This document shows positions 48 to 9,869 of a stretch of DNA of 9,869 bases, one piece after another. This DNA is from Candidatus Iainarchaeum sp. GTDB lineage: Archaea; Iainarchaeota; Iainarchaeia; Iainarchaeales; 0-14-0-20-30-16. The DNA lies in NCBI GenBank assembly GCA_903916665.1, contig CAIWXP010000180.1, positions 1 to 9,869 of the forward strand. Reading direction: 5' to 3'. The notes under the pieces were generated by a model. The model searched no databases. It saw nothing but the letters and a program-made list of their open reading frames with translations, and was not told the origin of the DNA. The position numbers and the translations under genes are program-made. Position 1 is the stretch's first letter; each line of letters begins with the position of its first letter.

Positions 48-160
48 CTACGCTTTTTTAAAAAGCTTAGTGTAGAAGATTGTGTTCTGTTGAACAAAAT
101 CTTTTACAAAGTGTTTGAAGCTAAAGCTTACAAGCACAAGTTCGCCAAAAGCGTTAACAA

Positions 161-180
161 ATTTTCTTTGAAAAGAAAAT
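161..180. repeat. Perfect 20-nt palindrome ATTTTCTTTGAAAAGAAAAT in the tRNA spacer (potential 8-9 bp hairpin)
   Basis: 161-169 (attttcttt) is the exact reverse complement of 172-180 (aaagaaaat). The core TTTCTTTG(A)AAAGAAA is shared with the palindrome at 283-299. Function is unknown. Confidence 0.6.
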
Positions 181-282
181 CTTTTAACAATTTTAAAAGA
201 AACGCCTTTGACAGTTTTAACTTTTATGAGCCTAACAACGGCTTGCGAAGGCAAGAGCTTGTTAGAAACTTAATAAAGTTTT

Positions 283-299
283 GTTTCTTTGAAAGAAAC
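283..299. repeat. Perfect 17-nt palindrome GTTTCTTTGAAAGAAAC, located 8 nt beyond the 3' end of tRNA-Arg
   Basis: 283-290 (gtttcttt) is the reverse complement of 292-299 (aaagaaac). It has the same core as 161-180. Its position just downstream of the tRNA-Arg 3' end (307) on the minus strand fits a processing or termination hairpin, but no T-run follows it directly. Confidence 0.55.
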
Positions 300-306
300 T
301 GTATTA

Positions 307-380
307 TGACCCCAGTGGGACTCGAACCCACGGTCTTCAGCTTAGAAGGCTGACGCCTTATCCAACTAGGCTATGAGGCC
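307..380 (-). tRNA. tRNA-Arg(UCU), 74 nt, CCA not encoded
   Basis: The reverse complement folds as a full cloverleaf: GGCCTCA-T-A-GCCT-AGTTGGATA-AGGC-G-TCAGC-CTTCTAA-GCTGA-AGACC-GTGGG-TTCGAGT-CCCAC-TGGGGTC-A. The acceptor stem has 7 bp including two G-U pairs. The D stem has 4 bp, and the anticodon and T stems have 5 bp each. The anticodon loop has U33 and TCT, and the T loop is TTCGAGT. Confidence 0.93.
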
Positions 381-388
381 AAAATAGA

Positions 389-458: not shown

Positions 459-1325
459 ATGCTATTTCAAGTTTTTATAAATGCTTTGATTGTTGGTAGT
501 GTTTACGCTTTAGTTGCTGTAGGGTTTGTTTTGACCTATGTTGTAACAAGATTTGCTAATTTTGGCCACGGCGCAACCATAGGGATCGCAGCCTATACTT
601 TTTTAATTTTCTTTAACTATGTTGGTTGGCTAGGCGCATTTATTTTAGCAGTTTTATTTGCCATGGGTTTTAACTTTTTAGTTTATTATTTTTTGTATAA
701 AAGACTTATACGTGATAAGGCATCAAAAGTTATTTTATTATTAATTTCATTTGGTATAATGTTAGCCGTAGAAAGTTTATTGCAAATTATTTTTACTGCT
801 AGCCCAAGAAGAATTGATTTGCCTGTTGTTCAAGGCATGGATTTGTTTGGTGCAAAAATAACTTTGATTCAAATTTTAATTATTGTTATTACTGTTGCAA
901 TTTTAATTGCTGTTTGGATAATAATGAGAAAAACAAAATTTGGGACTGTGTTTAAAGCAGTTTCTGACAATCAAGAGTTAGCTGAGATTTATGGTATCAA
1001 TGCCGAAAAAATAATGCTATATTCTTTTTTAGTTGCCGGAATTCTTGGAGCAATTGCAGGAACAATAATCACATTAGAATATGTGTTAACACCAACACTA
1101 GGAACATTCTATATGATAAAAGGATTCATAGGAGCAGTAACTGGCGGACTAACTAGTGTGTATGGTTCTATTTTTGGAAGTTATTTAGTTGGTTTGTTCG
1201 AAAACTATGGTGCATGGTTTTTTTTAAGCACCTACAAAGATGCAATTGCATTCATATTGCTTTTCTTAGTTTTACTAATTAGACCTCAAGGTTTATTTGG
1301 AATAAAAAAAGGAATAAGAGAATAG
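459..1325 (+). CDS. livH: Branched-chain amino acid (HAAT family) ABC transporter permease, LivH-type
   Basis: This is a 288-aa polytopic membrane protein. Its N-terminus MLFQVFINALIVGSVYALVAVGFVLTYVVTRFANFGHG matches the LivH/BPD_transp_2 signature (..G..YAL.A.G......G..NFAHG..). It is hydrophobic throughout and ends in the conserved ..LL.RP.GLFG tail. Confidence 0.9.
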   Translation: MLFQVFINALIVGSVYALVAVGFVLTYVVTRFANFGHGATIGIAAYTFLIFFNYVGWLGAFILAVLFAMGFNFLVYYFLYKRLIRDKASKVILLLISFGIMLAVESLLQIIFTASPRRIDLPVVQGMDLFGAKITLIQILIIVITVAILIAVWIIMRKTKFGTVFKAVSDNQELAEIYGINAEKIMLYSFLVAGILGAIAGTIITLEYVLTPTLGTFYMIKGFIGAVTGGLTSVYGSIFGSYLVGLFENYGAWFFLSTYKDAIAFILLFLVLLIRPQGLFGIKKGIRE

Positions 1326-1345
1326 TTATAAAAAACTATTTTCTT
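1316..1345. terminator. Hairpin spanning the abutting convergent stop codons of livH and the PHP gene (candidate bidirectional terminator)
   Basis: 1316-1327 (aagagaatagtt) pairs with 1334-1345 (aactattttctt). That is 12 bp with one G-T wobble (1320/1341) and a 6-nt loop. The livH stop TAG (1323-1325) and the PHP stop (complement of 1326-1328) sit inside the stem. The plus-strand 3' arm is T-rich (ttttctttt). On the minus strand a T7 run (complement of 1304-1310) follows 5 nt after the stem. Confidence 0.45.
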
Positions 1346-2036
1346 TTAACCATTTGTATGCAAAAGGTATTGGATATTTCAGACCCCACAGATTGTGAGC
1401 GTCACTATTTATCATAATTAATTTTGCTTTTTCCAACATTTGTTTTAATAATTTCTCATTTTCACATTTTTTAATAAGGCTTTTACCATTTACTTCCAAA
1501 GGAATTTTGTGTTTGTTTGTAAATTCAGTTAATCTATCAATATCTAAATATGTTTCTAAGGGCGCAAAATGTAAATCTGGATAATAATTATGATCTAAGC
1601 AAGGATGTCCAATGCAAGTAATTTTATCTTTATATTTCAAAATTGCTTTTTCGTAGGCCTCATTTAATTGTTTATCTTTTCCTAAATAAATCCCTTGGTG
1701 TGCAGACAAAATAAATTTTTCAGATTTTTGTCCTTGAATATCAAAACAAACGTTGCCCTTAGCATCTAACAAATCTGCTTCAACACTAAAATTAACCTTA
1801 ACATTATTTTTTATATTTTGATAACTATTAACAGTATATCTACAAGTAGATTGGCAAACACCATATCTTTTTTTAGAGAATTCTAATTCTGCTTGACTAT
1901 GGTCACTAATAGTAATTTCCTTTAATTTCATTTTCCCAGCATATTCTACAATTTCTTCTATTGTATTAATTCCATCACTAAATGTACAGGAATGTATATG
2001 ATGGTCTGTATTCTTTGCATTAACTATTTTAAACAT
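1326..2036 (-). CDS. PHP-domain metal-dependent phosphoesterase (histidinol-phosphatase-like superfamily)
   Basis: The 236-aa protein carries the ordered PHP metal-binding motifs: DHHIHSCTFSDG (DxHxH..SDG), ISDHS, VEAD, SAH, IGHP, EVNG and NSDAH. The exact substrate cannot be told from the sequence. Confidence 0.8.
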   Translation of the reverse strand: MFKIVNAKNTDHHIHSCTFSDGINTIEEIVEYAGKMKLKEITISDHSQAELEFSKKRYGVCQSTCRYTVNSYQNIKNNVKVNFSVEADLLDAKGNVCFDIQGQKSEKFILSAHQGIYLGKDKQLNEAYEKAILKYKDKITCIGHPCLDHNYYPDLHFAPLETYLDIDRLTEFTNKHKIPLEVNGKSLIKKCENEKLLKQMLEKAKLIMINSDAHNLWGLKYPIPFAYKWLKENSFL

Positions 2037-2056
2037 ATTAAAATAAGAGCAAATTA

Positions 2057-2064
2057 ATTTATAT
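2057..2064 (-). promoter_or_regulatory. TATA-box-like element (minus strand ATATAAAT) upstream of the PHP gene
   Basis: The box centre is about 25 nt upstream of the PHP start codon (2036), with no SD between them. It lies in the 58-bp gap after binding protein 1. The minus-strand sequence just after that gene's stop is T-rich (CTTTCTTTTTCTTTATT), a plausible archaeal oligo-T terminator. Confidence 0.35.
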
Positions 2065-2094
2065 CTCTATTGCTAATAAAGAAAAAGAAAGACA

Positions 2095-3231
2095 TCAATT
2101 GATGTATTCTACTACCTTTGTTTCACCATAGATCAATTCCAATATATTAAATTCAATATTTTTTCTATCTCCATTAGAATCAAAGGTTATTTTTCCTGTT
2201 ACTCCATCATAGTTTGTAGTATATAAATAATTTTTAAGTTTTGTTGAATCTGTACTATTTATTTTTAATGAAGAATCAACAAGTAACATTACGCTGTCAT
2301 AAATGTATGGTGCGTAGGCCTGTGGTTCTCTACCATATATACTTTTGAACTTATTTTCAAATAAGCTATTTTTCCATAATTCTTTTTGAAAAGGAAACAA
2401 TATTTTTACAGGATAATTTTGTAAATATTTTTCTGAGTATATTGTAGGATCCGATAGTGGGTCTGCACCAATAATTGGTATTTTTGTTCCGCTTTCTAGA
2501 TATTGTTTGAAAAATATTTTATATTCTGAATTATATGCAAATACAAACAATACATCTGGATTTTTTAAATTCATTTTTTCAATTGATAATTTAAAATCAT
2601 TTGATCCTTGTGCAACTGCATCTTCAAAAATTATTTTTCCTCCTAATTTTTCAAAATTAGGTATTAATTCATCTCTTAAACCTTTTTGGAAATCACTTTG
2701 AATATAAATTATTCCTGCTGTTTTTGCATTATATTTTCTAATTGCAATTTCTGCAGCAATTCTTGCTTGATATATATCAGAAAAATTAGTTCTAAATATA
2801 TAATCTCCAGCTTCAGATATTTTTGGGTTTGTTGCAACACTTGCTATCAGCAAAGTTTTTGTTTCTTCTGCAATTGGTGCAACACCTAATACTTCTGAAC
2901 TACACATTGCAATTATTGCATCTGGTTTTTTTGTGGCTATTAATGTTTGTGCAGCAATTGCGGCATCTTTGCCATTACATTTTCCATCTTCTACAAAGAA
3001 TTCAACATTTATTTTTCTTTCAAGCAATTCTTTTTTTGCGATATCCAAAGCTTTTAAGGCGTCTTCGCCATAGCTTGCACCATCACCAGTTAATGGTGCA
3101 ATTAGACCTATCTTTAATACTTTATTTTCATTGGCCAAACCAAATAATCCTGTTGTATTAGTTCCAATTAACACTAAAACTCCAATTATTATTGCTAATG
3201 CTATAATACCAATTAATATTTTTTTGTTCAT
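2095..3231 (-). CDS. LivK/Peripla_BP_6-type ABC substrate-binding protein 1, with N-terminal membrane anchor or signal
   Basis: Family hallmarks are LKIGLIAPLTGDGASYG, EDGKC...AMCSSE (conserved Cys pair), AGDYIFR, FEKLGGKI and YDGVTGKITFDSNGD. The N-terminus MNKKILIGIIALAIIIGVLVLIG is a hydrophobic anchor without a lipobox Cys. I moved the start from the ORF-track 3276 to 3231 for two reasons. A GGAGG (complement of 3238-3242) sits 6 nt upstream of this ATG. MNKKIL also aligns with the N-termini of the two paralogs. Confidence 0.88.
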   Translation of the reverse strand: MNKKILIGIIALAIIIGVLVLIGTNTTGLFGLANENKVLKIGLIAPLTGDGASYGEDALKALDIAKKELLERKINVEFFVEDGKCNGKDAAIAAQTLIATKKPDAIIAMCSSEVLGVAPIAEETKTLLIASVATNPKISEAGDYIFRTNFSDIYQARIAAEIAIRKYNAKTAGIIYIQSDFQKGLRDELIPNFEKLGGKIIFEDAVAQGSNDFKLSIEKMNLKNPDVLFVFAYNSEYKIFFKQYLESGTKIPIIGADPLSDPTIYSEKYLQNYPVKILFPFQKELWKNSLFENKFKSIYGREPQAYAPYIYDSVMLLVDSSLKINSTDSTKLKNYLYTTNYDGVTGKITFDSNGDRKNIEFNILELIYGETKVVEYIN

Positions 3232-3353
3232 TCCATCCCTCCTTGAGTAAAACAATAATATTATATTGGATTTCAAGGAGTATTTATCACTAAACAGAGT
3301 ATTTTTTAATGAAAAACGAATATTTTATATACTTTATTAGGTTTATATTAAAT
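3232..3353. promoter_or_regulatory. 122-bp divergent promoter region of cassette 1
   Basis: It contains the binding-protein SD (3238-3242, minus strand) and a TTTATATA box at 3324-3331, centred about 26 nt before the regulator ATG at 3354. A TATTTTTT element at 3300-3307 lies 24 nt upstream of that box. Minus-strand TATA candidates lie at 3260-3267 and 3281-3287. Confidence 0.5.
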
Positions 3354-4382
3354 ATGCTTAAAGATTTAGATTCTCAAGATAAACTACTTTTATATCTATT
3401 AGATCGAAATAGTAAATTACCATTAAGTTCTTTGGCAAAACAAATTAAATTATCAAGAGAAAGTGTATTGTATAGATTAAATGGTTATTTTAGAAAAGGA
3501 ATAATTAGAAATTATTTACCAGTTATTGATATGGGAAAAATAGGTTATACCCATTATAAAGTATTTATTAAATTATCAAATATTACTTTTGATGAAGAAC
3601 AAAATTTTTTAAAACATTTAATTGAAAATTCAAATGTTACCTGGGTTGGTAGCTGTGATGGTATATATAATTTAATTTTTGCATTGCGTGCAAAATCATC
3701 ATTAGACGCATCAACAATAGTAGATAAAATAAATGAAAAATATGGTAAATATATTAAGCAACAAGATATTACTACAATAGTAAATGCGACACACTATTAC
3801 AGGGATTATTTAATAAAGGATTTTGATAAAACAAAATTAAAGCAAATTTTTAAAGAAGAAATAAAATGGACTGAGGCCAAAGATCCTAAAGAATTAGATG
3901 ATGTTGATTATGGTATTTTAGACCTGTTGTCAAGAAATGTAAGAACACCATCAACAGAAATTGCAACTAAATTAAAAGTCTCGCCAGATACTATAATATT
4001 ACGAATAAAAAGATTAGAAAAACAAAAAATATTGCAACATTATACAATTTGGCCAAATGTAAATAACCTAATTGGAAATTATTATAAAGTTTTAGTTAAT
4101 TTTAAAAATATAAATTTAGATTTAGAAAAAAGAGTTTTAAACTTTTGTAGATTGCACCCAAATATAGTCTATGTTCCCAAAGTATTTGGGCCCTGGCAAT
4201 ATGAATTTGATTTTGATGTTGAAAGCCCAGACCAATTAAGAGAGTTTATGCGTGATTTTTCAAATAAGTTTGAAGAAAATATATTGGAATATAATGCATT
4301 GAACATATATCAAGAGTATAAGTATAGGTTTTTTGATATTGGTGCCGTTAAAGAGAAAAAAGAAAAGAAAAATAGAGATTAA
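3354..4382 (+). CDS. Tandem (double) Lrp/AsnC-family transcriptional regulator 1, HTH-RAM-HTH-RAM in one chain
   Basis: The N-half is DKLLLYLLDRNSKLPLSSLAKQIKLSRESVLYRLNGYFRKGII (AsnC-type HTH) followed by a beta-alpha-beta-beta-alpha-beta segment (YKVFIKL...NLIFALRA...). The C-half is VDYGILDLLSRNVRTPSTEIATKLKVSPDTIILRIKRLEKQKIL followed by YYKVLVNFKN...HPNIVYV...YEFDFDV. The start is placed at 3354 (M16 of the ORF-track protein) by alignment with the paralogs and by the TATA box at 3324-3331. The ORF-track extension translates the promoter. Confidence 0.82.
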   Translation: MLKDLDSQDKLLLYLLDRNSKLPLSSLAKQIKLSRESVLYRLNGYFRKGIIRNYLPVIDMGKIGYTHYKVFIKLSNITFDEEQNFLKHLIENSNVTWVGSCDGIYNLIFALRAKSSLDASTIVDKINEKYGKYIKQQDITTIVNATHYYRDYLIKDFDKTKLKQIFKEEIKWTEAKDPKELDDVDYGILDLLSRNVRTPSTEIATKLKVSPDTIILRIKRLEKQKILQHYTIWPNVNNLIGNYYKVLVNFKNINLDLEKRVLNFCRLHPNIVYVPKVFGPWQYEFDFDVESPDQLREFMRDFSNKFEENILEYNALNIYQEYKYRFFDIGAVKEKKEKKNRD

Positions 4383-4392
4383 TTCTCTATTT
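4370..4392. terminator. Hairpin over the overlapping convergent stop codons (TTAA) of regulator 1 and binding protein 2, flanked by an A-tract and a T-tract
   Basis: 4370-4378 (aaatagaga) is the exact reverse complement of 4384-4392 (tctctattt), with a 5-nt loop TTAAT (4379-4383). The loop holds the regulator stop TAA (4380-4382) and the binding-protein stop (complement of 4379-4381). The upstream flank is A-rich (aagagaaaaaagaaaagaa) and the downstream flank is T-rich (ctatttgttttgtt). This is the layout of a bidirectional intrinsic-type terminator. Confidence 0.45.
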
Positions 4393-5500
4393 CTATTTGT
4401 TTTGTTAATGCATTGATTATTTTTTTATCTGTGAATTTAATTCCTTGCACATCTCCTAAATTATCGAAGTAATAATTTCCTATAACTCCTGAGTATTTTA
4501 CAGTATATAGATAATCTTTTATGCAATCTGTATTTTCATCACATTGTTTTATTGCGTCAGTTAAAAGATATAATGAGTCGTAGGTTGCACCAGAAAAATA
4601 ATCACTTATTTTTGGAGTATATTTTTGCAAAAATAATTTAACTAAATTATTATTTTGATTTAATATTGGGGTATCAACATATTCTAAACCATTTAATGAT
4701 TCTTTTCCTGCATCTAAAGCATCCTGTCCATTAAATTGCGCAGTTCCAAAAAAAGGGATTAATAAATTTAATTCTTTGGCCTGTTTTACTATTAAACCAC
4801 CTTTTAATGCTGATTGAGGAACAATAAATAATGCATCACTAGTTGAATCTTTAATTTTGGTTAGCTGTGTTAAAAAATCATTTGATTCTGTATTATATTT
4901 TTGCAGAGTTAAAATCTTTCCGCCCAATTCATTAAATCTTTTTGTAAATATTTCAACAACACTATTTGCATATTCAGTATTTTCAGAAATAATTGCAATA
5001 TTTTTATATCCTTTAGAATATATTAATTCTGCGCTTGCTTTTCCTAAAATACTTTCAGAAGGATAATTTCTAAAAACATAGTCTCCTGCATTTGAAACTG
5101 CTGCACTAGATGATCCTGTTGAAAATAATATAACTTTATTTTTTTCAGTAATTGGTGCAGCAGCTAATGTTTCGGAACTACAAACTCCACCAATAATAAT
5201 TTTAACGTTATCTACATCAATTAATTTTTCAGTAGCTTTTGCAGCTTCTGCGCTATCACATTTCGAATCTTCATAAAATAATTCTATTTTTTGTCCATTT
5301 AATTCATTGTTAGTATTTATTTCTGCTTTGGCAATTTCTAAAACAGATCTAACTTCTTGACCATAGGATCCTACATCACCACTTAACGGCGCAATAACTC
5401 CTATTTTAATAGTTTTATTAGAGCTGTTTGAAAATGCAAAAGTTAATATTCCAATAATTAAAATTCCAATAATACAAATTGTTAATACTTTATAATTCAT
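4379..5500 (-). CDS. LivK/Peripla_BP_6-type ABC substrate-binding protein 2, with N-terminal membrane anchor or signal
   Basis: Family hallmarks are IKIGVIAPLSGDVGSYG, EDSKC...GVCSSE, AGDYVFR, FNELGGKI and YSGVIGNYYFDNLGD. The N-terminus MNYKVLTICIIGILIIGILTFAF is hydrophobic. A GGAGG (complement of 5507-5511) sits 6 nt upstream of the ATG (5500). Confidence 0.9.
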   Translation of the reverse strand: MNYKVLTICIIGILIIGILTFAFSNSSNKTIKIGVIAPLSGDVGSYGQEVRSVLEIAKAEINTNNELNGQKIELFYEDSKCDSAEAAKATEKLIDVDNVKIIIGGVCSSETLAAAPITEKNKVILFSTGSSSAAVSNAGDYVFRNYPSESILGKASAELIYSKGYKNIAIISENTEYANSVVEIFTKRFNELGGKILTLQKYNTESNDFLTQLTKIKDSTSDALFIVPQSALKGGLIVKQAKELNLLIPFFGTAQFNGQDALDAGKESLNGLEYVDTPILNQNNNLVKLFLQKYTPKISDYFSGATYDSLYLLTDAIKQCDENTDCIKDYLYTVKYSGVIGNYYFDNLGDVQGIKFTDKKIINALTKQIEIEN

Positions 5501-5619
5501 AATAATCCTCCGTTTTCTAAAAGTTATTATTTTTTGAGTAATTCTTATATGTAAAACTTATGTTCTATTTTTTGTAATTAATGACTATATTTATATATAT
5601 TTTGTTATTTATTACTAAT
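5501..5619. promoter_or_regulatory. 119-bp divergent promoter region of cassette 2
   Basis: It contains the binding-protein SD (5507-5511, minus strand) and a TTTATATA box at 5590-5597, centred about 26 nt before the regulator ATG at 5620. TATTTTTT at 5566-5573 lies 24 nt upstream of the box, the same spacing as in cassette 1. GTTCTATTTTT (5562-5572) is shared with cassette 3. A minus-strand TATA candidate lies at 5545-5554. Confidence 0.5.
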
Positions 5620-6618
5620 ATGGCAAAGGAAATATCTAAAACAGCACAATTAGTAGATCTAGATCTCTTAGATAAAAAGATTCTATTTGAATTGGATATT
5701 AATTCTAGAATGCCCATAACACAATTATCTAAAAAAGTAAGAGCAAATAGAAATGTTGTAGAGTATAGAATGAAAAGGTTAGAAGAAAAAGGAGTAATAC
5801 AAAAATATGTTACTTTGATTGATGCGGGGCAAGTAGGCTTAATGGCATGGAACATTTATTTAGAATTTCAAAATACAACTCCTGAAATAGAACAAAATAT
5901 TATTGATTATTTAAAAAAACATAAAAAATGTTGGTGGATTGCATCAACAACAGGTAGTTGGGATTTAATTTATAGTATTCTAGTTAAAGATATAAAAGAA
6001 TTTTATAATACTGTTGATGAATTTAATTCTGAGTTTGGTCAATACATTTTAAATCAAAGTTTGGCTGCGCATGTTGAAATTTATATTTTTTCTAGAGGTT
6101 ATTTTTTGAATAAAGCCTCTGTTCAAACTATTTGGTATAAAACCTATAATCCACAAAAGATAGACGAGATCGATAAAGCAATATTAAGTGAGTTATCGAC
6201 CAATGCAAGAATTCCTTTGGTTACATTAGCACATAAAATTGGTCAGACGCCAAGAATAGTATCCTATAGAATAAATGATTTAATAAAAAGAAAAATAATT
6301 ACTGTTTTTAGATTACAATTAAACCCGGATATTTATGGTTATAAATTTTATAAAGTTTTGATTTATTTGAAAAATCAAAATAAAAAAAGTAATAATTTAT
6401 TAAGAGAATATTGCAGACAATTGGGAACAATAATGCACTATGAATTGAAAATTGGTCCCTGGATGTTAGAGTTAGAATTAGACTCAAAAAGCTATGAAGA
6501 AATAAATGAACTAATGAAAACAATGAAAACCAAATTTAATGATTACATTAAAAGCTATGAAATATTACAAATAAGCGAAGAATTAAAAGGAGAATTAAAT
6601 GTTACTTTACAGTTGTAA
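5620..6618 (+). CDS. Tandem (double) Lrp/AsnC-family transcriptional regulator 2
   Basis: The N-half is LLDKKILFELDINSRMPITQLSKKVRANRNVVEYRMKRLEEKGVI followed by a RAM-like segment (WNIYLEF...WDLIYSILVK...). The C-half is EIDKAILSELSTNARIPLVTLAHKIGQTPRIVSYRINDLIKRKII followed by FYKVLIYLKN...MLELELDS. The start is placed at 5620 (MAKEISK). The ORF-track start at 5581 lies inside the TATA region, and its first 13 residues have no counterpart in the paralogs. Confidence 0.82.
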   Translation: MAKEISKTAQLVDLDLLDKKILFELDINSRMPITQLSKKVRANRNVVEYRMKRLEEKGVIQKYVTLIDAGQVGLMAWNIYLEFQNTTPEIEQNIIDYLKKHKKCWWIASTTGSWDLIYSILVKDIKEFYNTVDEFNSEFGQYILNQSLAAHVEIYIFSRGYFLNKASVQTIWYKTYNPQKIDEIDKAILSELSTNARIPLVTLAHKIGQTPRIVSYRINDLIKRKIITVFRLQLNPDIYGYKFYKVLIYLKNQNKKSNNLLREYCRQLGTIMHYELKIGPWMLELELDSKSYEEINELMKTMKTKFNDYIKSYEILQISEELKGELNVTLQL

Positions 6619-6622
6619 TATT

Positions 6623-7753
6623 TTATTTTTGTTCAATTAATTTTCCATTTTTTGTTTTCACAATAACAAAATTACCGTTTAATATCATGCCTTCTTTATC
6701 AAATTGTATTTTTCCAGATAATCCTAAATAATCAATATCGTGCAAATAATCAATAATTTTATTTGTGTCAATGTTTTTTGTATTTATTATTGCCTCGTTT
6801 AATAGCATTAAAGAATCATAGGCTCTGTTCCCACATAAATCAGAATCTATTTTAATCATTCCAGTTCTTTGTTTCAATTCATCACTAAACAAAGTATTTG
6901 TTTCAGAGGTCTTCAAAACAGTTCCATATATGTTATCAGATATTGATCCTAATTTTGCAACTAAATCTTTATCCAATAAACTAGGAACGAAAATAGTTTG
7001 TTTTAGATTTATTTCTTTTGCTTGCTCAAATAATTTTTCTTGACCACCAACATATTGCGGCGCAAATATTATTTCGGCATCACCATTATTGATTTTAATT
7101 AAATAACTTCTCAAATCTGATTCGTCAGTTGTGTTGTGTTCAATAATTGTTATTGTTCCACCTAATTCTGAGAATCGTTCTTTGAATATTGTTTCTTCTC
7201 CTAAGCACCAATCACTTTGGCAGGAAAATATTGCTGCTTTTCTTTTGCTCAATACATTATAAATATATTCTGCAGATAATTTTCCATCTAAATTATCTAA
7301 AGGATACAAACTAAAAATATAATTTTTTATATTTTTTAAATCTGGTGAACTTGCGCAGGGAGATATTGTTAACGTTTCTGATGATTCTATTAAATCTTTT
7401 CCTACCAATGTTTCTGAGCTACAAATACCTCCAATAATAAAATTAACTTTATCTACATTTATTAATTTATTAAATGCTGCAGAGCCTTGCATGGCACTGC
7501 ATTGACCATCTTCAATTATAAATTTAATAGGTCTATTATTAATTTTATTATTTAAATTATCTGCTGCTAATTCTAATGCTGCTTTGGCAGATATTCCATA
7601 GGTCGCCATATCTCCTGTTAAAGGAACAATAACTCCTATTTTTATTGGGTCAGTATTTGATAATATAAATAATCCAGAAGACTTTGCACCAATTATAAAT
7701 ATTATACTTAAAATTACTATTCCAACAATTACAAAGATAATTTTTTTATCCAT
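6623..7753 (-). CDS. LivK/Peripla_BP_6-type ABC substrate-binding protein 3, with N-terminal membrane anchor or signal
   Basis: Family hallmarks are IKIGVIVPLTGDMATYG, EDGQC...GICSSE, FSELGGTI and YLGLSGKIQFDKEG. The N-terminus MDKKIIFVIVGIVILSIIFIIG is hydrophobic. An AGGTG (complement of 7759-7763) sits 5 nt upstream of the ATG (7753). Confidence 0.9.
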   Translation of the reverse strand: MDKKIIFVIVGIVILSIIFIIGAKSSGLFILSNTDPIKIGVIVPLTGDMATYGISAKAALELAADNLNNKINNRPIKFIIEDGQCSAMQGSAAFNKLINVDKVNFIIGGICSSETLVGKDLIESSETLTISPCASSPDLKNIKNYIFSLYPLDNLDGKLSAEYIYNVLSKRKAAIFSCQSDWCLGEETIFKERFSELGGTITIIEHNTTDESDLRSYLIKINNGDAEIIFAPQYVGGQEKLFEQAKEINLKQTIFVPSLLDKDLVAKLGSISDNIYGTVLKTSETNTLFSDELKQRTGMIKIDSDLCGNRAYDSLMLLNEAIINTKNIDTNKIIDYLHDIDYLGLSGKIQFDKEGMILNGNFVIVKTKNGKLIEQK

Positions 7754-7874
7754 TTAATCACCTTAATATTACTTTCTCTATTAAGTAGATTATATAAATT
7801 AGGTTCTATTTTTAAGAAAAAAGGTAAATATATATACTACTTTATACTATTATTTCTTATAAATAGGTAATATT
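7754..7874. promoter_or_regulatory. 121-bp divergent promoter region of cassette 3
   Basis: It contains the binding-protein SD (7759-7763, minus strand). A minus-strand TTTATATA (complement of 7791-7798) is about 41 nt upstream of the binding-protein ATG, which would give a leader of about 15 nt. GTTCTATTTTT lies at 7803-7813. Plus-strand TATA candidates are TATATACT (7831-7838) and TTTATACT (7841-7848). A weak AGGT at 7865-7868 precedes the regulator ATG at 7875. Confidence 0.45.
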
Positions 7875-8843
7875 ATGCGAATAGACAAATTAGACTATAA
7901 AATTCTTTTTGAATTAGATCGTGATTCTAGGTTACCTATTACTGATTTGGCAAAGAAAGTAAGATTAAGTAAAGATTCTGTAATTTATCGAATTAAAAGA
8001 ATGGAAACTCAAGGAATAATATTGACCTATGAAACCTACGCGAATTCTGGCAAATTAGGATATATTAATGCAAGAATTAATTTAAGACTTCAAAATACTA
8101 CTTTAGCTATTGAAAATGAAATAAATAAATATATTTTAAATCAGAAGTTTGTTACTTTTTTTGCAAGTGTTGAAGGAGATATAGATTTAATTATTTTTGT
8201 AATGGTAAAATCAGTAAACGAATTGAATTTATTTTACAATGATTTAGTTTCTAGATATGGGAATTATATTAACAATAAAGAATTAGGTGTATATTCAAAA
8301 GTTATTCATTTTAGTAGAAATTATTTAGTTAATGAAAAATCAAGATCTAGTTTTAGTTTTGTATCATCAGATGATAAGATTGATTTAGACAAATTAGATT
8401 ATGACTTATTGCAAATATTATCTAAAAACGCAAGAACTAGTATTGTTGATATTTCAAAAAGATTATCAATATCTGTTAAAACAGCATCAAATAGAATAAA
8501 AAAATTAAAAGAAAAACAAATAATAACAGGAAGTACAATATCTTTAGATTTAGATAAATTAGGTGTATTATATTATAAAGTGTGTATTGATTTAAAAGAA
8601 TTAAATAATGATATGACAAAAAAATTAGATTCTTTTTTTGCATCGCATCCAAACGTAGTATATAGAGATTATGTTGTTTGTGGTCATGATTGTGAAGTAG
8701 AAATAGAAGTTTTTAAAGCAAGTGAGTTGAGGACATTTATTAATGATGTAAAAGATAAGTTTTCAAATGTGATTAAAGATTATAGTATTTTGCATTATTA
8801 TAAATTGCATAGATTGAGTCAACAATTATTATTGGAAAGGTGA
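7875..8843 (+). CDS. Tandem (double) Lrp/AsnC-family transcriptional regulator 3
   Basis: The N-half is KLDYKILFELDRDSRLPITDLAKKVRLSKDSVIYRIKRMETQGII followed by a RAM-like segment (ARINLRL...IDLIIFVMVK...). The C-half is KLDYDLLQILSKNARTSIVDISKRLSISVKTASNRIKKLKEKQII followed by YYKVCIDLKE...HPNVVYR...CEVEIEVF. Each half is about 160 aa, the size of a complete Lrp/AsnC protein. Confidence 0.85.
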   Translation: MRIDKLDYKILFELDRDSRLPITDLAKKVRLSKDSVIYRIKRMETQGIILTYETYANSGKLGYINARINLRLQNTTLAIENEINKYILNQKFVTFFASVEGDIDLIIFVMVKSVNELNLFYNDLVSRYGNYINNKELGVYSKVIHFSRNYLVNEKSRSSFSFVSSDDKIDLDKLDYDLLQILSKNARTSIVDISKRLSISVKTASNRIKKLKEKQIITGSTISLDLDKLGVLYYKVCIDLKELNNDMTKKLDSFFASHPNVVYRDYVVCGHDCEVEIEVFKASELRTFINDVKDKFSNVIKDYSILHYYKLHRLSQQLLLER

Positions 8844-8885
8844 ATATATTTAATAATAGATTATATAATATATAAGGGATAAAAC

Positions 8886-9752
8886 ATGATAGATTACTTT
8901 GCAACAGTATTGGTATTTTTTATTTATAATGTTTTAACTGCTGTTGCTGCCAATTTAACGCTGGGTTATTTAGGTTTATTTAATTTGGGTTTAATTGCAT
9001 TAATTGGTATTGGTGCCTATTGTTATGCATTATTTCAAAGTATTGGTTGCGGGTTTTGGTTATCTACTTTATTGGCAATTTTAATACCTGGGTTGTTTGC
9101 AATAGGTTTGCAATATTTGACAAGAAAATTAAAGGGAGATTATTTTGGTATTGCAACACTTGGTTTTACCTATTTAGTATTTGCAATATTAGTAAATGCA
9201 GATTTTACTCGCGGAGCATTAGGAATTCCAGGAATTCCCAAACCAGTTATATTTGGTTTTGAATTTGGATCTCCTTTATTATTTTTATTATTTTCAACAA
9301 TTGTTTTAGTAATTGTTTTGTTTATTGTTTATAGATTAGTAAATTCTAGATTTGGAAGACTAATGCAGGCAATAAGGGATGATGAGACAAGCGTAAAAGT
9401 TTTAGGAAAAAATACTGATGCAGTAAAATACAAAGTAACTTTCTTTGCAGGTTGTATTGCAGGATTAGCAGGAATGATCTTTGCATCCTTTATAACATTC
9501 ATCGATCCATTCTCATTTTTATTACCACCATTAATTACAATATTAACAATTGCAATTCTTGGAGGACTAGCATCTTTCTGGGGGCCCGTATTAGGTGCCG
9601 CAATAATAACTGTTATTCCTGAGCTATTGCGATTTGTTGGCTTGCCATCAAGTGTTCTAGGCCCTCTAAGAGTTTTAATCTATGCAGTAATATTAATAGT
9701 TGTTTTAGTCTATTGGCCCAAAGGTATTTTAGGCAATATAAAATATGAGTGA
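8886..9752 (+). CDS. livM: Branched-chain amino acid (HAAT family) ABC transporter permease, LivM-type
   Basis: This is a 288-aa polytopic membrane protein. NLTLGYLGLFNLGLIALIGIGAYCYAL matches the LivM signature (..G.aG..slG.a.f.giGAY). It also has a cytoplasmic-loop segment RFGRLMQAIRDDE..VKVLGKN and the GG..S..GP.LGA motif. A weak SD (AAGGGA, 8874-8879) precedes the ATG. Confidence 0.9.
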   Translation: MIDYFATVLVFFIYNVLTAVAANLTLGYLGLFNLGLIALIGIGAYCYALFQSIGCGFWLSTLLAILIPGLFAIGLQYLTRKLKGDYFGIATLGFTYLVFAILVNADFTRGALGIPGIPKPVIFGFEFGSPLLFLLFSTIVLVIVLFIVYRLVNSRFGRLMQAIRDDETSVKVLGKNTDAVKYKVTFFAGCIAGLAGMIFASFITFIDPFSFLLPPLITILTIAILGGLASFWGPVLGAAIITVIPELLRFVGLPSSVLGPLRVLIYAVILIVVLVYWPKGILGNIKYE

Positions 9753-9757
9753 TATGC

Positions 9758-9869
9758 ATGAAATATATTAGTTTAGCATTGATTTTAATATTAGTATTAA
9801 CAATCACTATGTTTTTTAGTGGTTGTGTATCTGAGAAAAAACAAGAAATAAAAGTAGGCGCAGTATTTG
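9758..9869 (+). CDS. Fourth LivK-type substrate-binding protein, lipoprotein-type signal, 5' fragment running off the window
   Basis: This gene is not in the supplied ORF track because no stop lies within the window. My own translation from the ATG at 9758 gives MKYISLALILILVLTITMFFSGCVSEKKQEIKVGAVF. That is a hydrophobic signal followed by a lipobox-like FSGC and then (E)IKVGAVF, which aligns with the IKIG(V/L)I(A/V)PL start of the mature domain in binding proteins 1-3. It starts 5 nt after the livM stop, which suggests co-transcription. Only 37 codons are visible. Confidence 0.65.
   Translation, partial: MKYISLALILILVLTITMFFSGCVSEKKQEIKVGAVF

What the first reader, a model, noticed from the sequence alone, without database searches (positions are those of the whole stretch)
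2095..8843. Three tandem ~2.2-kb cassettes, each pairing a membrane-anchored LivK-type binding protein with its own divergent double-Lrp regulator
Seen in the sequence: units 2095-4382, 4379-6618 and 6623-8843 (2288, 2240 and 2221 bp) repeat the same architecture. Each has a minus-strand binding protein, a divergent intergenic region of 119-122 bp, and a plus-strand two-module Lrp/AsnC protein. The units are packed head to tail with a 4-bp overlap and a 4-bp gap. The three binding proteins keep family hallmarks (IKIG.I.PL(T/S)GD...YG; ED..C...CSSE; F.(E/K)LGG; Y.G..G...FD). Otherwise they are strongly diverged, roughly one third identical by eye in the N-terminal lobe. The regulators are similarly diverged, so this is an old triplication that has been kept, not a recent repeat. 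Established knowledge: LivJ/K-type proteins deliver amino acids and related small ligands to LivHM permeases, and RAM domains of Lrp/AsnC proteins sense amino acids. Inference: the locus is a modular specificity array. Three receptors would feed one LivHM channel, each under its own ligand-responsive regulator. To my knowledge, a strict one-to-one binding-protein/double-Lrp unit repeated in tandem inside a liv operon is not a described arrangement.
Basis: partly seen in the sequence, partly recalled or inferred. Interest (0 to 1): 0.75.

Follow-up and report, generated by a model that had tools for sequence, protein, structure and literature searches.

The report
Three binding-protein/regulator modules in a variable transporter slot
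A tiny-genome (DPANN) archaeon carries three nutrient-binding-protein genes, each facing its own fused double Lrp-type regulator gene, but they are three ancient unrelated pairs gathered in a strain-variable gap between two transporter genes, not a preserved triplication.

Summary
Three head-to-tail units (2095-4382, 4379-6618, 6623-8843) each hold a minus-strand Peripla_BP_6 binding protein, a 119-122 bp divergent spacer and a plus-strand protein built from two complete Lrp/AsnC modules (AlphaFold pLDDT 94.7).

The interpretation needs correcting:
- The window is a whole contig of a DPANN archaeon.
- The three regulators fall in three anciently separate subfamilies, and so do the binding proteins. 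The trees are incongruent, so this is accretion or partner shuffling, not a kept triplication.
- A divergent upstream partner about 100-150 bp away is a family-wide habit of these double-Lrp proteins (50 of 55 elsewhere). The partners vary and are rarely a binding protein.
- The livH-livM interval is a strain-variable slot. Sister strains carry AbiE plus a regulator-1 relic, or Fic, in the same place.
- A fourth, lipoprotein-type binding protein follows livM.
- One other tandem array exists (L151), outside any liv context.

Most likely function, inferred rather than shown: accessory receptors with different pockets share one LivHM channel, each under a local single-chain Lrp regulator. This is a new variant of known kinds and of moderate interest.

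The parts
306..381 (-). tRNA-Arg(TCT), conserved left flank
   Evidence: ARAGORN and Rfam tRNA at 71 bits. 98.7% identical in sister contigs L058/L059.
459..1325 (+). LivH-like ABC permease (288 aa), left anchor of the variable slot
   Evidence: BPD_transp_2, E 3.5e-35, full-length match. NCBIfam UrtB/LivH hits are below their cut-offs. Homology with L067 ends at the stop codon, window 1324.
1326..2036 (-). PHP-domain phosphoesterase (236 aa), same strand as and downstream of SBP1 (58-bp gap); part of the slot cargo
   Evidence: PF02811, E 4e-9. HisJ-family and PHP NCBIfam hits are below their cut-offs. Absent from the sister-strain variants.
2095..3231 (-). SBP1: type I (HAAT/LivJ-like) substrate-binding protein with an N-terminal hydrophobic segment (the ORF extends to 3276 from a TTG)
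   Evidence: Peripla_BP_6, E 7e-39. Keeps the LivJ-equivalent Y18, C53/C78, S79, T102, Y202 and D226.
3232..3353 (.). Divergent spacer 1 (122 bp): SD GGAGGG for SBP1 (complement of 3237-3242) and a TATA box TTTATATA at 3324-3331, ending 22 nt before the REG1 ATG
   Evidence: Sequence. A TATA-like 12-mer is shared by 8 of 8 such spacers and by 0 of 40 shuffles.
3354..4382 (+). REG1: fused double Lrp/AsnC regulator (342 aa; the ORF starts at 3309)
   Evidence: Two HTH_AsnC-type stretches, E 3e-19. Aligns end to end with REG3. Relatives at 57, 52 and 48% identity. A 3' relic survives in L058.
4379..5500 (-). SBP2: substrate-binding protein (373 aa)
   Evidence: Peripla_BP_6, E 5e-50. Nearest solved structures are 3TD9 and 4GNR (E 4e-27) and LivJ 1Z15 (E 2e-21). 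Clade with the L002 and L039 binding proteins, 89% bootstrap.
5501..5619 (.). Divergent spacer 2 (119 bp): SD GGAGG (complement of 5507-5511), SBP-side TATA-like box at 5545-5552, REG-side TTTATATA at 5590-5597 ending 22 nt before the ATG
5620..6618 (+). REG2: fused double Lrp/AsnC regulator (332 aa; the ORF starts at 5581)
   Evidence: Two HTH stretches. About 50 homologs at 50-65% identity across DPANN phyla. 27-member clade with 100% bootstrap.
6623..7753 (-). SBP3: substrate-binding protein (376 aa)
   Evidence: Peripla_BP_6, E 1e-40. 56% identical to the L001 binding protein, with nearly the same pocket signature.
7754..7874 (.). Divergent spacer 3 (121 bp): SD AGGTG (complement of 7759-7763), TATA-like boxes at 7790-7797 and 7829-7836
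7875..8843 (+). REG3: fused double Lrp/AsnC regulator (322 aa)
   Evidence: Two HTH stretches, E 1e-25. AlphaFold model pLDDT 94.7, pTM 0.90, with two HTH + RAM modules. The halves match Lrp transcription factors at TM 0.80-0.85.
8844..8885 (.). Right edge of the slot: 42-bp spacer with a TATA-like box at 8861-8868; strain breakpoints at 8857 (L061/L062) and 8874-8875 (L058/L067)
8886..9752 (+). LivM-like ABC permease (288 aa), right anchor of the slot
   Evidence: BPD_transp_2, E 4.5e-36. 92-93% amino-acid identity in L058 and L067. The junction with REG3 is confirmed by the independent contig L060, 99.6% over 1,636 bp.
9758..9869 (+). SBP4 (5' end): lipobox-type (FFSGC) binding protein co-oriented with livM; runs off the contig
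   Evidence: Translation. Extended by L060 and L067, which match SBP1-3 only weakly (E 1e-9 to 1e-14). Lacks the C53/C78 pair and S79.

Best explanation
The window is a complete 9.9-kb contig of a low-GC DPANN archaeon. Its LivH is 88% identical to that of a 'Candidatus Diapherotrites' MAG.

It carries a HAAT-family (LivHM-type) ABC importer whose two permease genes are separated by a strain-variable cargo slot. In this strain the slot holds a PHP phosphoesterase gene and three accessory modules. Each module is an exported, probably membrane-tethered, type I substrate-binding protein, transcribed divergently from a single-chain pseudo-dimeric Lrp/AsnC regulator across about 120 bp containing two archaeal TATA boxes.

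Shown:
- the gene families, the fold and the geometry;
- the variability of the slot;
- the ancient, non-monophyletic origin of the three pairs;
- distinct and conserved residues at positions that line the pocket in LivJ.

Inferred:
- each regulator binds its own spacer and controls the adjacent binding-protein gene, and probably itself, in response to a small ligand sensed by its RAM domains;
- the three binding proteins, together with the operon-encoded lipoprotein SBP4, dock on the same LivHM channel and widen its substrate range to different amino-acid-like compounds;
- the array arose by accretion and partner shuffling of pre-existing modules, not by local triplication.
For: Families and fold.

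Archaeal host: the homologs are all DPANN MAGs, the spacers share TATA boxes, and sigma-70 promoter matches are at chance level.

Local-regulator reading: 50 of 55 other family members have a divergent upstream gene, mostly about 100-150 bp away. The archaeal Lrp review says lrp genes often sit next to their targets, sometimes divergently, and that some regulate transporters (PMC2995911).

The pair recurs in the same geometry in L001, L002, L039 and twice in L151.

Different specificities: Y18, the C53-C78 pair, S79 and T/S102 are kept, while positions 150 (F/Y/W), 202 (Y/Q/Y), 226 (D/A/S) and 276 (Y/F/C) differ. W3 shares nearly all of its signature with L001, and W2 shares Y150/A151/P201/Q202 with L002 and L039.

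Shared translocator: binding proteins without a nearby permease occur in L001, L002, L039 and L151. Regulator-free runs of 4-5 binding-protein genes are seen in L074, L087, L110 and L126. Different binding proteins using one translocator is documented (PMC3971661).

Accretion rather than triplication.

Variable slot.
Against: - No operator motif was found. GTTCTATTTTT in spacers 2 and 3 is not significant. The 11-mer shared with the L001 spacer is reached in 137 of 2,000 shuffles. Only the TATA signal is shared.
- REG2 homologs at 61-65% identity have different divergent neighbours, so REG2 could be a conserved general regulator rather than an SBP2-specific one.
- The RAM domains are below threshold by sequence, and effector binding is untested.
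- No ATPase genes (livG/livF) are on the contig, so the completeness of the transporter is unknown.
- LivH is interrupted in a related MAG, which shows the system can decay in this lineage.
- Position 226 is acidic only in SBP1, so SBP2 and SBP3 may not bind standard alpha-amino acids. The alignment is less certain in that lobe.
- The left junction (livH-PHP-SBP1) has no independent assembly. It is supported only indirectly, by the REG1 relic beside livH in L058.
Confidence: 0.6

Rival explanations
1. One reading: an ancestral binding-protein/double-Lrp cassette was triplicated in place inside the liv operon and retained, with each regulator co-evolving with its partner.
For: The three units have identical architecture, orientation and spacer length. 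Regulators and binding proteins show similar pairwise divergence of about 30-33%. Pair 3 is conserved as a pair in L001, with the regulator 51% and the binding protein 56% identical.
Against: The regulators are not monophyletic: REG2 is in a 27-member clade (100%), REG3 in a 7-member clade (96%), and their common grouping covers at least 130 of 161 family members. The binding proteins are as far from each other (30-32%) as from Patescibacteria proteins (34-39%). L002 pairs a REG3-clade regulator with an SBP2-clade binding protein. REG2 homologs and REG3-clade members L004/L005 lack a binding-protein partner. The geometry is a family-wide trait with many kinds of partner.
Confidence: 0.08
2. 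The adjacency carries no regulatory meaning. The double-Lrp proteins are general or housekeeping regulators with targets elsewhere, which happen to lie next to binding-protein genes in a compact genome or an insertion hotspot.
For: REG2 homologs are highly conserved (50-65% identity, about 50 proteins) across several DPANN phyla and have different neighbours. No shared or unit-specific operator was detected. Some archaeal Lrp proteins act globally (PMC2995911).
Against: The same divergent geometry with a binding protein recurs eight times in five loci, involving at least four regulator lineages. Elsewhere in the binding-protein family the regulator is absent (0 of 80 loci), so the association is concentrated and not random. 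A divergent partner is nearly universal in the family (50 of 55), as expected for local control of, or from, a shared promoter region.
Confidence: 0.2
3. The binding proteins are not transport receptors for LivHM. They would act as surface sensors or scavenging or adhesion proteins of an episymbiotic cell, with the regulators tuning surface composition.
For: Paired binding proteins in L001, L002, L039 and L151 have no permease within 5-10 kb. Position 226 is not acidic in SBP2 and SBP3. An unusual (S/T)GLF motif follows the N-terminal hydrophobic segment in several of them. LivH is interrupted in a relative.
Against: Strong full-length similarity to transport-type LIV-binding proteins. The disulfide pair and the N-lobe ligand-contact positions are conserved. 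In the window they lie between the two permease genes. Binding-protein genes encoded away from their translocator are a known pattern (PMC3971661).
Confidence: 0.1
4. The 320-345 aa proteins are enzymes of the NirDL/AhbAB siroheme decarboxylase type, not regulators.
For: The only full-length structural match is NirDL (4CH7/4CZC; TM 0.61, E 9e-14). There are weak NirdL-like_HTH and AhbA hits.
Against: Only 14% identity to NirDL. AhbA/AhbB scores of 23-37 bits fall far below the cut-offs of 140 and 125. Each half fits true Lrp transcription factors much better (TM 0.80-0.85) than AhbA/B (TM 0.54-0.58). There are strong AsnC-type HTH matches in both halves. No haem-pathway genes appear in the window or in the surveyed neighbourhoods.
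Confidence: 0.02

Closest known systems
E. coli LivJ/LivK binding proteins with LivHMGF, regulated by Lrp (Haney et al. 1992, PMC205683, cited in PMC5320599)
   Same: LivJ-type binding proteins (E 2e-21 to LivJ 1Z15), LivH/LivM-type permeases, more than one receptor for one channel, and an Lrp-family regulator linked to amino-acid uptake.
   Different: Here the regulators are local, one per receptor gene, divergently transcribed, and are fused two-module proteins. The receptors fall far below the LivJ/K NCBIfam cut-off (97-126 bits against 477). The host is an archaeon. livH and livM are not adjacent.
Archaeal local Lrp-type regulators next to their targets (for example Ss-LrpB with permease genes, LysM; review PMC2995911)
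   Same: The regulator gene sits beside its presumed target and shares a control region with it. Transport genes are among the known targets. The fold is HTH + RAM.
   Different: Those proteins are single modules of about 150 aa that dimerise and oligomerise. Here two diverged modules are fused in one chain. N-halves and C-halves separate with 97% bootstrap, indicating a single ancient fusion. No fused Lrp regulator is mentioned in that review or found in my literature searches.
NirDL, the fused siroheme decarboxylase (PDB 4CH7/4CZC)
   Same: The only solved protein with the same fused double Lrp-like architecture (TM 0.61 over the full length).
   Different: It is an enzyme, only 14% identical, and the family cut-offs are not met. 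The halves of REG3 resemble transcription factors more than AhbA/B.
ABC importers served by several binding proteins (His/Lys/Arg system, OppBCDF and others; PMC3971661)
   Same: Different receptors dock on one translocator. Here that would be up to four (SBP1-3 and SBP4).
   Different: In those systems the extra receptor genes do not each carry a dedicated regulator. Sharing is inferred here, not shown.
Regulator-free tandem arrays of LivJ-like binding-protein genes in metagenome contigs (L074, L087, L110, L126)
   Same: Runs of 4-5 paralogous binding-protein genes, sometimes beside livHM.
   Different: Those arrays are co-oriented and have no interleaved regulators. The interleaved array was found only in the window and in L151.

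Membership tests
Type I periplasmic-binding fold, HAAT / LivJ-LivK-like substrate-binding proteins | Match to Pfam Peripla_BP_6 (PF13458) above the gathering score | tested here: met
   134.9, 171.7 and 140.7 bits against a cut-off of 31.7, with near full-length coverage.
Type I periplasmic-binding fold, HAAT / LivJ-LivK-like substrate-binding proteins | Sequence similarity to solved branched-chain amino-acid binding proteins | tested here: met
   SBP2 against 3TD9 and 4GNR, E 4e-27, and against LivJ 1Z15, E 2e-21, over about 325 residues. Only SBP2 was searched.
Type I periplasmic-binding fold, HAAT / LivJ-LivK-like substrate-binding proteins | Orthology to LivJ/LivK (NCBIfam PRK15404 cut-off) | tested here: not met
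   97-126 bits against a cut-off of 477. They are family members, not LivJ/K orthologs.
Type I periplasmic-binding fold, HAAT / LivJ-LivK-like substrate-binding proteins | Alpha-amino-acid binding residues of LivJ (Y18, S79, T102, Y202, E226; the residue list is from my own knowledge of the LivJ structures) | tested here: inconclusive
   Y18, S79 and T/S102 are kept in all three. Position 202 is Y/Q/Y and position 226 is D/A/S. Only SBP1 keeps the full set, and the alignment is less certain in the C-lobe.
Type I periplasmic-binding fold, HAAT / LivJ-LivK-like substrate-binding proteins | Export signal or membrane anchor | tested here: inconclusive
   A charged N-terminus followed by a 19-22 residue hydrophobic stretch, with no lipobox cysteine, is visible in all three. 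No tool was available to tell a cleaved signal peptide from an anchor.
Lrp/AsnC (feast/famine) transcription regulators | AsnC-type winged HTH domain | tested here: met
   PF13404 at 65-83.5 bits (cut-off 27) and PF13412 at 53-89 bits (cut-off 21.9), two stretches in each of the three proteins.
Lrp/AsnC (feast/famine) transcription regulators | RAM / AsnC_trans_reg ligand-binding domain, by sequence | tested here: not met
   PF01037 at 16.9, 20.4 and 22.8 bits against a cut-off of 25.
Lrp/AsnC (feast/famine) transcription regulators | RAM domain (beta-alpha-beta-beta-alpha-beta) following each HTH, by structure | tested here: met
   The REG3 model (pLDDT 94.7) shows the fold twice. The halves superpose on FL11/PH1519, NMB0573, ST1022 and E. 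coli Lrp at TM 0.74-0.85. Only REG3 was modelled; REG1 and REG2 align with it end to end.
Lrp/AsnC (feast/famine) transcription regulators | Single chain of about 150 aa that forms homodimers or octamers | tested here: not met
   The chains are 322-342 aa with two diverged modules. N and C halves form separate clades (97% bootstrap). This is a fused variant of the family.
Lrp/AsnC (feast/famine) transcription regulators | Sequence-specific DNA binding and effector response | not testable with these tools
   No significant operator motif was found. EMSA or DAP-seq is needed.
Siroheme decarboxylase NirDL / AhbAB | NCBIfam AhbA/AhbB equivalog score | tested here: not met
   23-36.7 bits against cut-offs of 140 and 125.
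Siroheme decarboxylase NirDL / AhbAB | Haem-pathway gene context | tested here: not met
   None in the window or among the divergent partners of 50 family members.
LivHMGF-type ABC importer operon | Two BPD_transp_2 permeases (LivH-like and LivM-like) | tested here: met
   E 3.5e-35 and 4.5e-36, full-length.
LivHMGF-type ABC importer operon | Adjacent, co-transcribed livH-livM | tested here: not met
   They are separated by 7.56 kb here, by 1.86 kb (AbiE) in L058 and by a Fic gene in L067. They are adjacent in most of the 80 comparison loci.
LivHMGF-type ABC importer operon | ATPase subunits LivG/LivF | not testable with these tools
   The contig, and every sister contig, ends within or before SBP4.
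Tandem co-duplicated gene-pair array | Paralogs monophyletic, with congruent partner trees | tested here: not met
   The three regulators and the three binding proteins each fall in separate ancient clades, and the L002 pair is a cross-clade combination.

The most novel reading that the evidence does not exclude
Binding-protein/double-Lrp pairs are exchangeable 'specificity modules'. On this reading, DPANN archaea gain, lose, shuffle and stack them in a strain-variable cargo slot bounded exactly by the livH stop codon and the livM ribosome-binding site. The same slot carries AbiE or Fic genes in sister strains. A nutrient importer's receptor repertoire and its control would then be diversified by module exchange, in the way that defence islands diversify.
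Probability: 0.2. Interest if true: 0.65.

Novelty: new variant of a known kind. Interest (0 to 1): 0.42.

Why it matters
DPANN archaea have tiny genomes and depend on imported metabolites, yet how they sense and choose nutrients is almost unknown. Three things here are useful.

1. A large, apparently uncharacterised family of single-chain double-Lrp regulators. It has 487 cluster representatives (50%-identity clusters) at E ≤ 1e-30, and its members nearly always face a divergent partner gene. That offers a simple handle on DPANN transcription control: regulator, target and promoter within about 120 bp.
2. Receptor genes each carrying their own regulator would allow substrate-by-substrate control of a single shared channel.
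3. The livH-livM gap behaves as a strain-variable slot, holding either nutrient modules or toxin-type genes. That is an unusual place for flexible cargo.

None of this changes what is known about Lrp proteins or ABC importers. It extends both to a new architecture and a new lineage.

Tried and rejected
- DNA-level repeat search: only short degenerate matches in conserved coding motifs, so a recent duplication is rejected.
- Shared operator motifs: GTTCTATTTTT in spacers 2 and 3 gave 4 matches against 1.34 expected, 14 of 200 shuffles did as well, and one copy lies inside livH. The 11-mer TATTTCTTATA shared by spacer 3 and the L001 spacer was reached in 137 of 2,000 shuffles. A k-mer scan of eight spacers found only the TATA signal.
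- Family-wide alignments were too divergent to seed the collection scans, so narrower alignments were used. This biased the genome scan towards REG3-like sequences and at first made REG2 look like an orphan. Searches corrected that.
- Biopython bootstrapping timed out and was replaced by my own numpy neighbour-joining code.
- The AlphaFold-DB fold library was unavailable.
- Other scans: PADLOC gave only cross-hits within the HTH regions. Rfam found only the tRNA. The sigma-70 promoter and terminator scan was at chance level.
- The siroheme-decarboxylase reading was rejected.
- L093 and L150, which carry W3-type and W2-type binding proteins, were checked for a hidden divergent double-Lrp gene. 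There is none; the neighbours are an unrelated same-strand membrane gene and a divergent TrmB-family gene.
- Literature searches found no description of fused Lrp transcription factors or of this pairing. The library is incomplete, so this is not proof of absence.

Full report
**1. What is in the window**

The 9,869-base window is a complete public contig; the proteins' longest contig is 9,869 bases. GC content is 23-35%. Gene order:

| Coordinates | Strand | Feature |
|---|---|---|
| 306-381 | − | tRNA-Arg(TCT) |
| 459-1325 | + | LivH-like permease |
| 1326-2036 | − | PHP-domain protein |
| 2095-3231 | − | SBP1 |
| 3354-4382 | + | REG1 |
| 4379-5500 | − | SBP2 |
| 5620-6618 | + | REG2 |
| 6623-7753 | − | SBP3 |
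| 7875-8843 | + | REG3 |
| 8886-9752 | + | LivM-like permease |
| 9758-end | + | start of a fourth binding protein (SBP4) |

All homologs of the regulators come from DPANN archaea: Woesearchaeota, Nanoarchaeota, Pacearchaeota, Micrarchaeota, Aenigmatarchaeota and Diapherotrites. LivH is 88% identical to an interrupted LivH in a 'Candidatus Diapherotrites' MAG. Bacterial sigma-70 promoter matches are at chance level (69 found, 69.5 expected). Rfam finds only the tRNA.

**2. Check of the observation**

- SBP1-3 match Peripla_BP_6 at E 7e-39, 5e-50 and 1e-40. REG1-3 each contain two AsnC-type HTH stretches.
- The binding proteins are 30-32% identical to one another and the regulators 29-33%.
- The 119-122 bp spacers depend on internal start codons. 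These are supported by the paralog alignments, by GGAGGG/GGAGG/AGGTG Shine-Dalgarno sequences directly upstream of the binding-protein starts, and by TTTATATA boxes that end 22 nt before the REG1 and REG2 ATGs, the spacing expected for leaderless archaeal mRNAs.
- DNA-level similarity between units is limited to short degenerate stretches in conserved coding motifs.
- The independent contig L060 reproduces REG3-livM-SBP4 at 99.6% identity over 1,636 bp.

**3. The regulators**

A model of REG3 built from a 32-sequence alignment has pLDDT 94.7 and pTM 0.90. It shows two HTH + beta-alpha-beta-beta-alpha-beta modules.

The only full-length match among solved structures is the fused siroheme decarboxylase NirDL (TM 0.61, 14% identity). 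Each half fits true Lrp/AsnC transcription factors (FL11/PH1519, NMB0573, ST1022, E. coli Lrp) at TM 0.74-0.85, against 0.54-0.58 for AhbA/B. AhbA/AhbB family scores are far below their cut-offs. The proteins are therefore single-chain pseudo-dimers of Lrp-type regulators, not enzymes. The RAM domains are below the Pfam threshold by sequence and are supported only by the structure model.

N-halves and C-halves from different members separate with 97% bootstrap support. N-N identity averages 38%, C-C 36% and N-C 23%. The fusion therefore happened once, before the family diversified.

The family is large. A search with REG1 finds 487 cluster representatives (50%-identity clusters) at E ≤ 1e-30, nearly all 316-352 aa and matched end to end.

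**4. The geometry is a family trait**

Of 57 further double-Lrp genes from 52 genome loci, 55 have a detectable upstream neighbour. In 50 of those 55 the neighbour is divergently oriented, mostly about 100-150 bp away. The partners are diverse: radical SAM enzymes in 8 cases, polyprenyl synthetases in 4, single examples of other families, and many with no Pfam match.

A binding protein is a rare partner:
- Only 1 of 54 regulator-anchored genome loci has a divergent binding protein (L039). L010 has one on the same strand.
- None of 80 binding-protein-anchored metagenome loci has a double-Lrp gene. In 49 of those 80 a LivH/LivM homolog lies nearby, usually as SBP→livH→livM on one strand. Regulator-free runs of 4-5 binding-protein genes also occur.

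The divergent pair was found in the window (three times), L001, L002 and L039, and twice in tandem in L151. L151 reads [regulator N-terminus ↔ W3-type binding protein][regulator ↔ binding protein], with spacers of 121 and 126 bp, next to a 936-aa protein and with no liv genes.

**5. Co-duplication test**

*Regulators (161 sequences, neighbour-joining, 100 bootstraps).* REG2 lies in a 27-member clade (100%). REG3 lies in a 7-member clade with L001, L002, L004, L005, P0003 and P0005 (96%). REG1 is separate; its relatives at 48-57% identity were found only by the exhaustive search. The smallest grouping that holds REG3 together with REG1 or REG2 contains at least 130 of the 161 sequences.

*Binding proteins (121 sequences).* W3+L001+P0055 form a clade (100%), which extends to P0056-58 (100%). 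W2+L002+L039+P0160/162/171 form a second clade (89%). W1 stands apart.

*Consequences.*
- L002 pairs a REG3-clade regulator (62% identical to L001's) with an SBP2-clade binding protein (27% identical to L001's).
- SBP2-clade binding proteins occur with three different regulator lineages, and once with a TrmB-family gene instead (L150).
- REG3-clade members L004 and L005 have no binding protein nearby.
- REG2 homologs at 65% and 61% identity face a 601-aa and a 119-aa unknown protein.
- The three binding proteins are no closer to each other than to Patescibacteria proteins (34-39% identity).

The array was assembled from three old lineages, with partner exchange, and not by a local triplication.

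Caveat: these are distance trees on MAFFT alignments. However, the decisive clades have 89-100% support and agree with the raw identities.

**6. The livH-livM interval is a variable slot**

Contigs whose LivM is 92-93% identical in protein (83% in DNA) carry different cargo between the same two genes:
- **L058/L059:** a 56-aa relic of the REG1 C-terminus (41% identity over 59 aa; 75% over 97 nt of DNA), followed by a 250-aa ORF and an AbiEii gene.
- **L067-L069:** a single Fic gene.
- **L061/L062:** 99.7% identical to the window from position 8857 onward, but with a different upstream ORF.

Homology with L067 stops at the livH stop codon (window 1324), and with L058 a few bases earlier (1312). 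It resumes 11-12 nt before the livM ATG (8874-8875). In a related Diapherotrites MAG, livH is interrupted, livM is absent and an AbiEii gene lies nearby. SBP4 follows livM in the window, L060 and L067-69. SBP4 has a lipobox (FFSGC) and lacks the C53/C78 pair and S79. It is the conserved, operon-encoded receptor, and SBP1-3 are accessory.

**7. Ligand pockets**

SBP2's nearest solved relatives are branched-chain amino-acid binding proteins: 3TD9 and 4GNR at E 4e-27, and LivJ at E 2e-21. Using LivJ numbering (the list of ligand-contact positions is from my own knowledge of the LivJ structures):
- Y18, the C53-C78 pair, S79 and T/S102 are conserved in SBP1-3.
- Position 150 is F/Y/W, 202 is Y/Q/Y, 226 is D/A/S and 276 is Y/F/C.
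- SBP3 shares nearly all of its signature with L001. SBP2 shares Y150/A151/P201/Q202 with L002 and L039.

This fits three conserved but different specificities. Only SBP1 keeps the full alpha-amino-acid set. The ligands themselves are unknown.

**8. Mechanism**

*Shown:* two TATA-type boxes and a Shine-Dalgarno-led binding-protein gene in each spacer.

*Inferred:* each single-chain Lrp regulator binds between or over the two promoters and controls the binding-protein gene, and probably itself, in response to an effector. The binding proteins deliver different compounds to the one LivHM channel.

*Precedent:*
- Lrp controls the E. coli liv genes (Haney 1992, cited).
- Archaeal lrp genes often lie beside their targets, sometimes divergently, and some regulate transporters (PMC2995911).
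- Different binding proteins can use one translocator, although this is described as relatively rare (PMC3971661).

*Weak points:*
- No significant operator motif was found.
- The neighbours of REG2 homologs vary.
- No ATPase genes are on the contig.

**9. Verdict**

The feature is real and the families were correctly identified. The 'kept triplication / co-duplicated cassette inside a liv operon' reading is replaced by 'three ancient binding-protein/regulator modules stacked in a strain-variable slot between livH and livM'. The arrangement is a new variant of known kinds: a local Lrp regulator beside a transport gene, and several receptors for one importer.

The parts most worth following up are the large, apparently unstudied double-Lrp family with its near-universal divergent partner, and the variable slot. 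Interest is moderate (0.42).

Noticed in passing
window 9758-9869 (+); extended in L060 1525-1719 and L067 2980-3669: A fourth binding-protein gene starts 6 nt after livM on the same strand. It has a lipobox-type signal (FFSGC), W at LivJ position 18, and lacks the C53/C78 pair and S79 found in SBP1-3. It is conserved in the sister strains, so it is probably the importer's own receptor.
   Followed up: partly
window 1325-8885, compared with L058 4894-6756, L059, L067 1104-2104, L061 1-130 and L062 1-51: The livH-livM interval is a strain-variable slot with sharp edges, at the livH stop codon and 11-12 nt before the livM ATG. Its cargo is PHP plus three modules here, a REG1 relic plus a 250-aa ORF and AbiEii in L058/L059, Fic in L067-69, and a different ORF in L061/L062. 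No integrase or flanking repeats were seen.
   Followed up: partly
L058 5037-5201 (matches window 4269-4365): A 56-aa ORF is a relic of the REG1 C-terminus (41% amino-acid identity over 59 aa; 75% DNA identity over 97 nt). A REG1-like gene therefore once lay next to livH in that lineage, before the AbiE genes took its place.
   Followed up: yes
L063-L066 (Ca. Diapherotrites MAG GCA_002779075.1 and related contigs), e.g. L063 5345-6211: The LivH homolog (88% identical) is split into 137-aa and 133-aa pieces, no livM follows, and an AbiEii gene lies about 1.4 kb upstream. The importer appears to be decaying in a close relative.
   Followed up: no
L004-L057 (genome loci of the double-Lrp family): 50 of 55 double-Lrp genes with a detectable upstream neighbour face a divergently oriented gene, mostly about 100-150 bp away. 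The partners include 8 radical SAM enzymes and 4 polyprenyl synthetases. Several loci hold 2-3 double-Lrp genes; L042 has three in a row on one strand.
   Followed up: partly
window 3144-3155 (SBP1) and 7666-7677 (SBP3); also the L001, L151 SBPb and P0073 N-termini: A (S/T)GLF motif directly follows the N-terminal hydrophobic segment in 4 of the 9 binding proteins listed from regulator-containing loci (8 of them divergently paired), across different clades. It occurs in only 2 of 115 general homologs, one of which is L001's own protein. It could be a processing or sorting signal; its function is unknown.
   Followed up: partly
window 4370-4392: A 9-bp inverted repeat with a 5-nt loop (AAATAGAGA-TTAAT-TCTCTATTT) spans the overlapping convergent stop codons of REG1 and SBP2. 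It may be a two-way terminator hairpin, or chance in AT-rich DNA.
   Followed up: no
window 1326-2036 (-): A PHP-domain phosphoesterase (weak HisJ-family histidinol-phosphatase similarity) lies 58 bp downstream of SBP1 on the same strand. It may be co-transcribed with SBP1, which would hint at a phosphorylated or histidinol-like substrate for module 1.
   Followed up: no
SBP3 homolog list, e.g. P0079, P0091, P0120, P0121: Beyond a handful of close relatives (P0054-P0058), the nearest named homologs of the binding proteins are from Patescibacteria (CPR bacteria) at 34-39% identity. That is as close as the window's own paralogs are to each other, which suggests old exchange of these genes between CPR bacteria and DPANN archaea.
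   Followed up: no
window 90-353 (+), 2823-3161 (+), 5565-5855 (-), 9020-9262 (+): These ORFs from the mechanical list overlap the tRNA or lie antisense or out of frame within confirmed genes. They have low-complexity translations and are almost certainly not genes.
   Followed up: no
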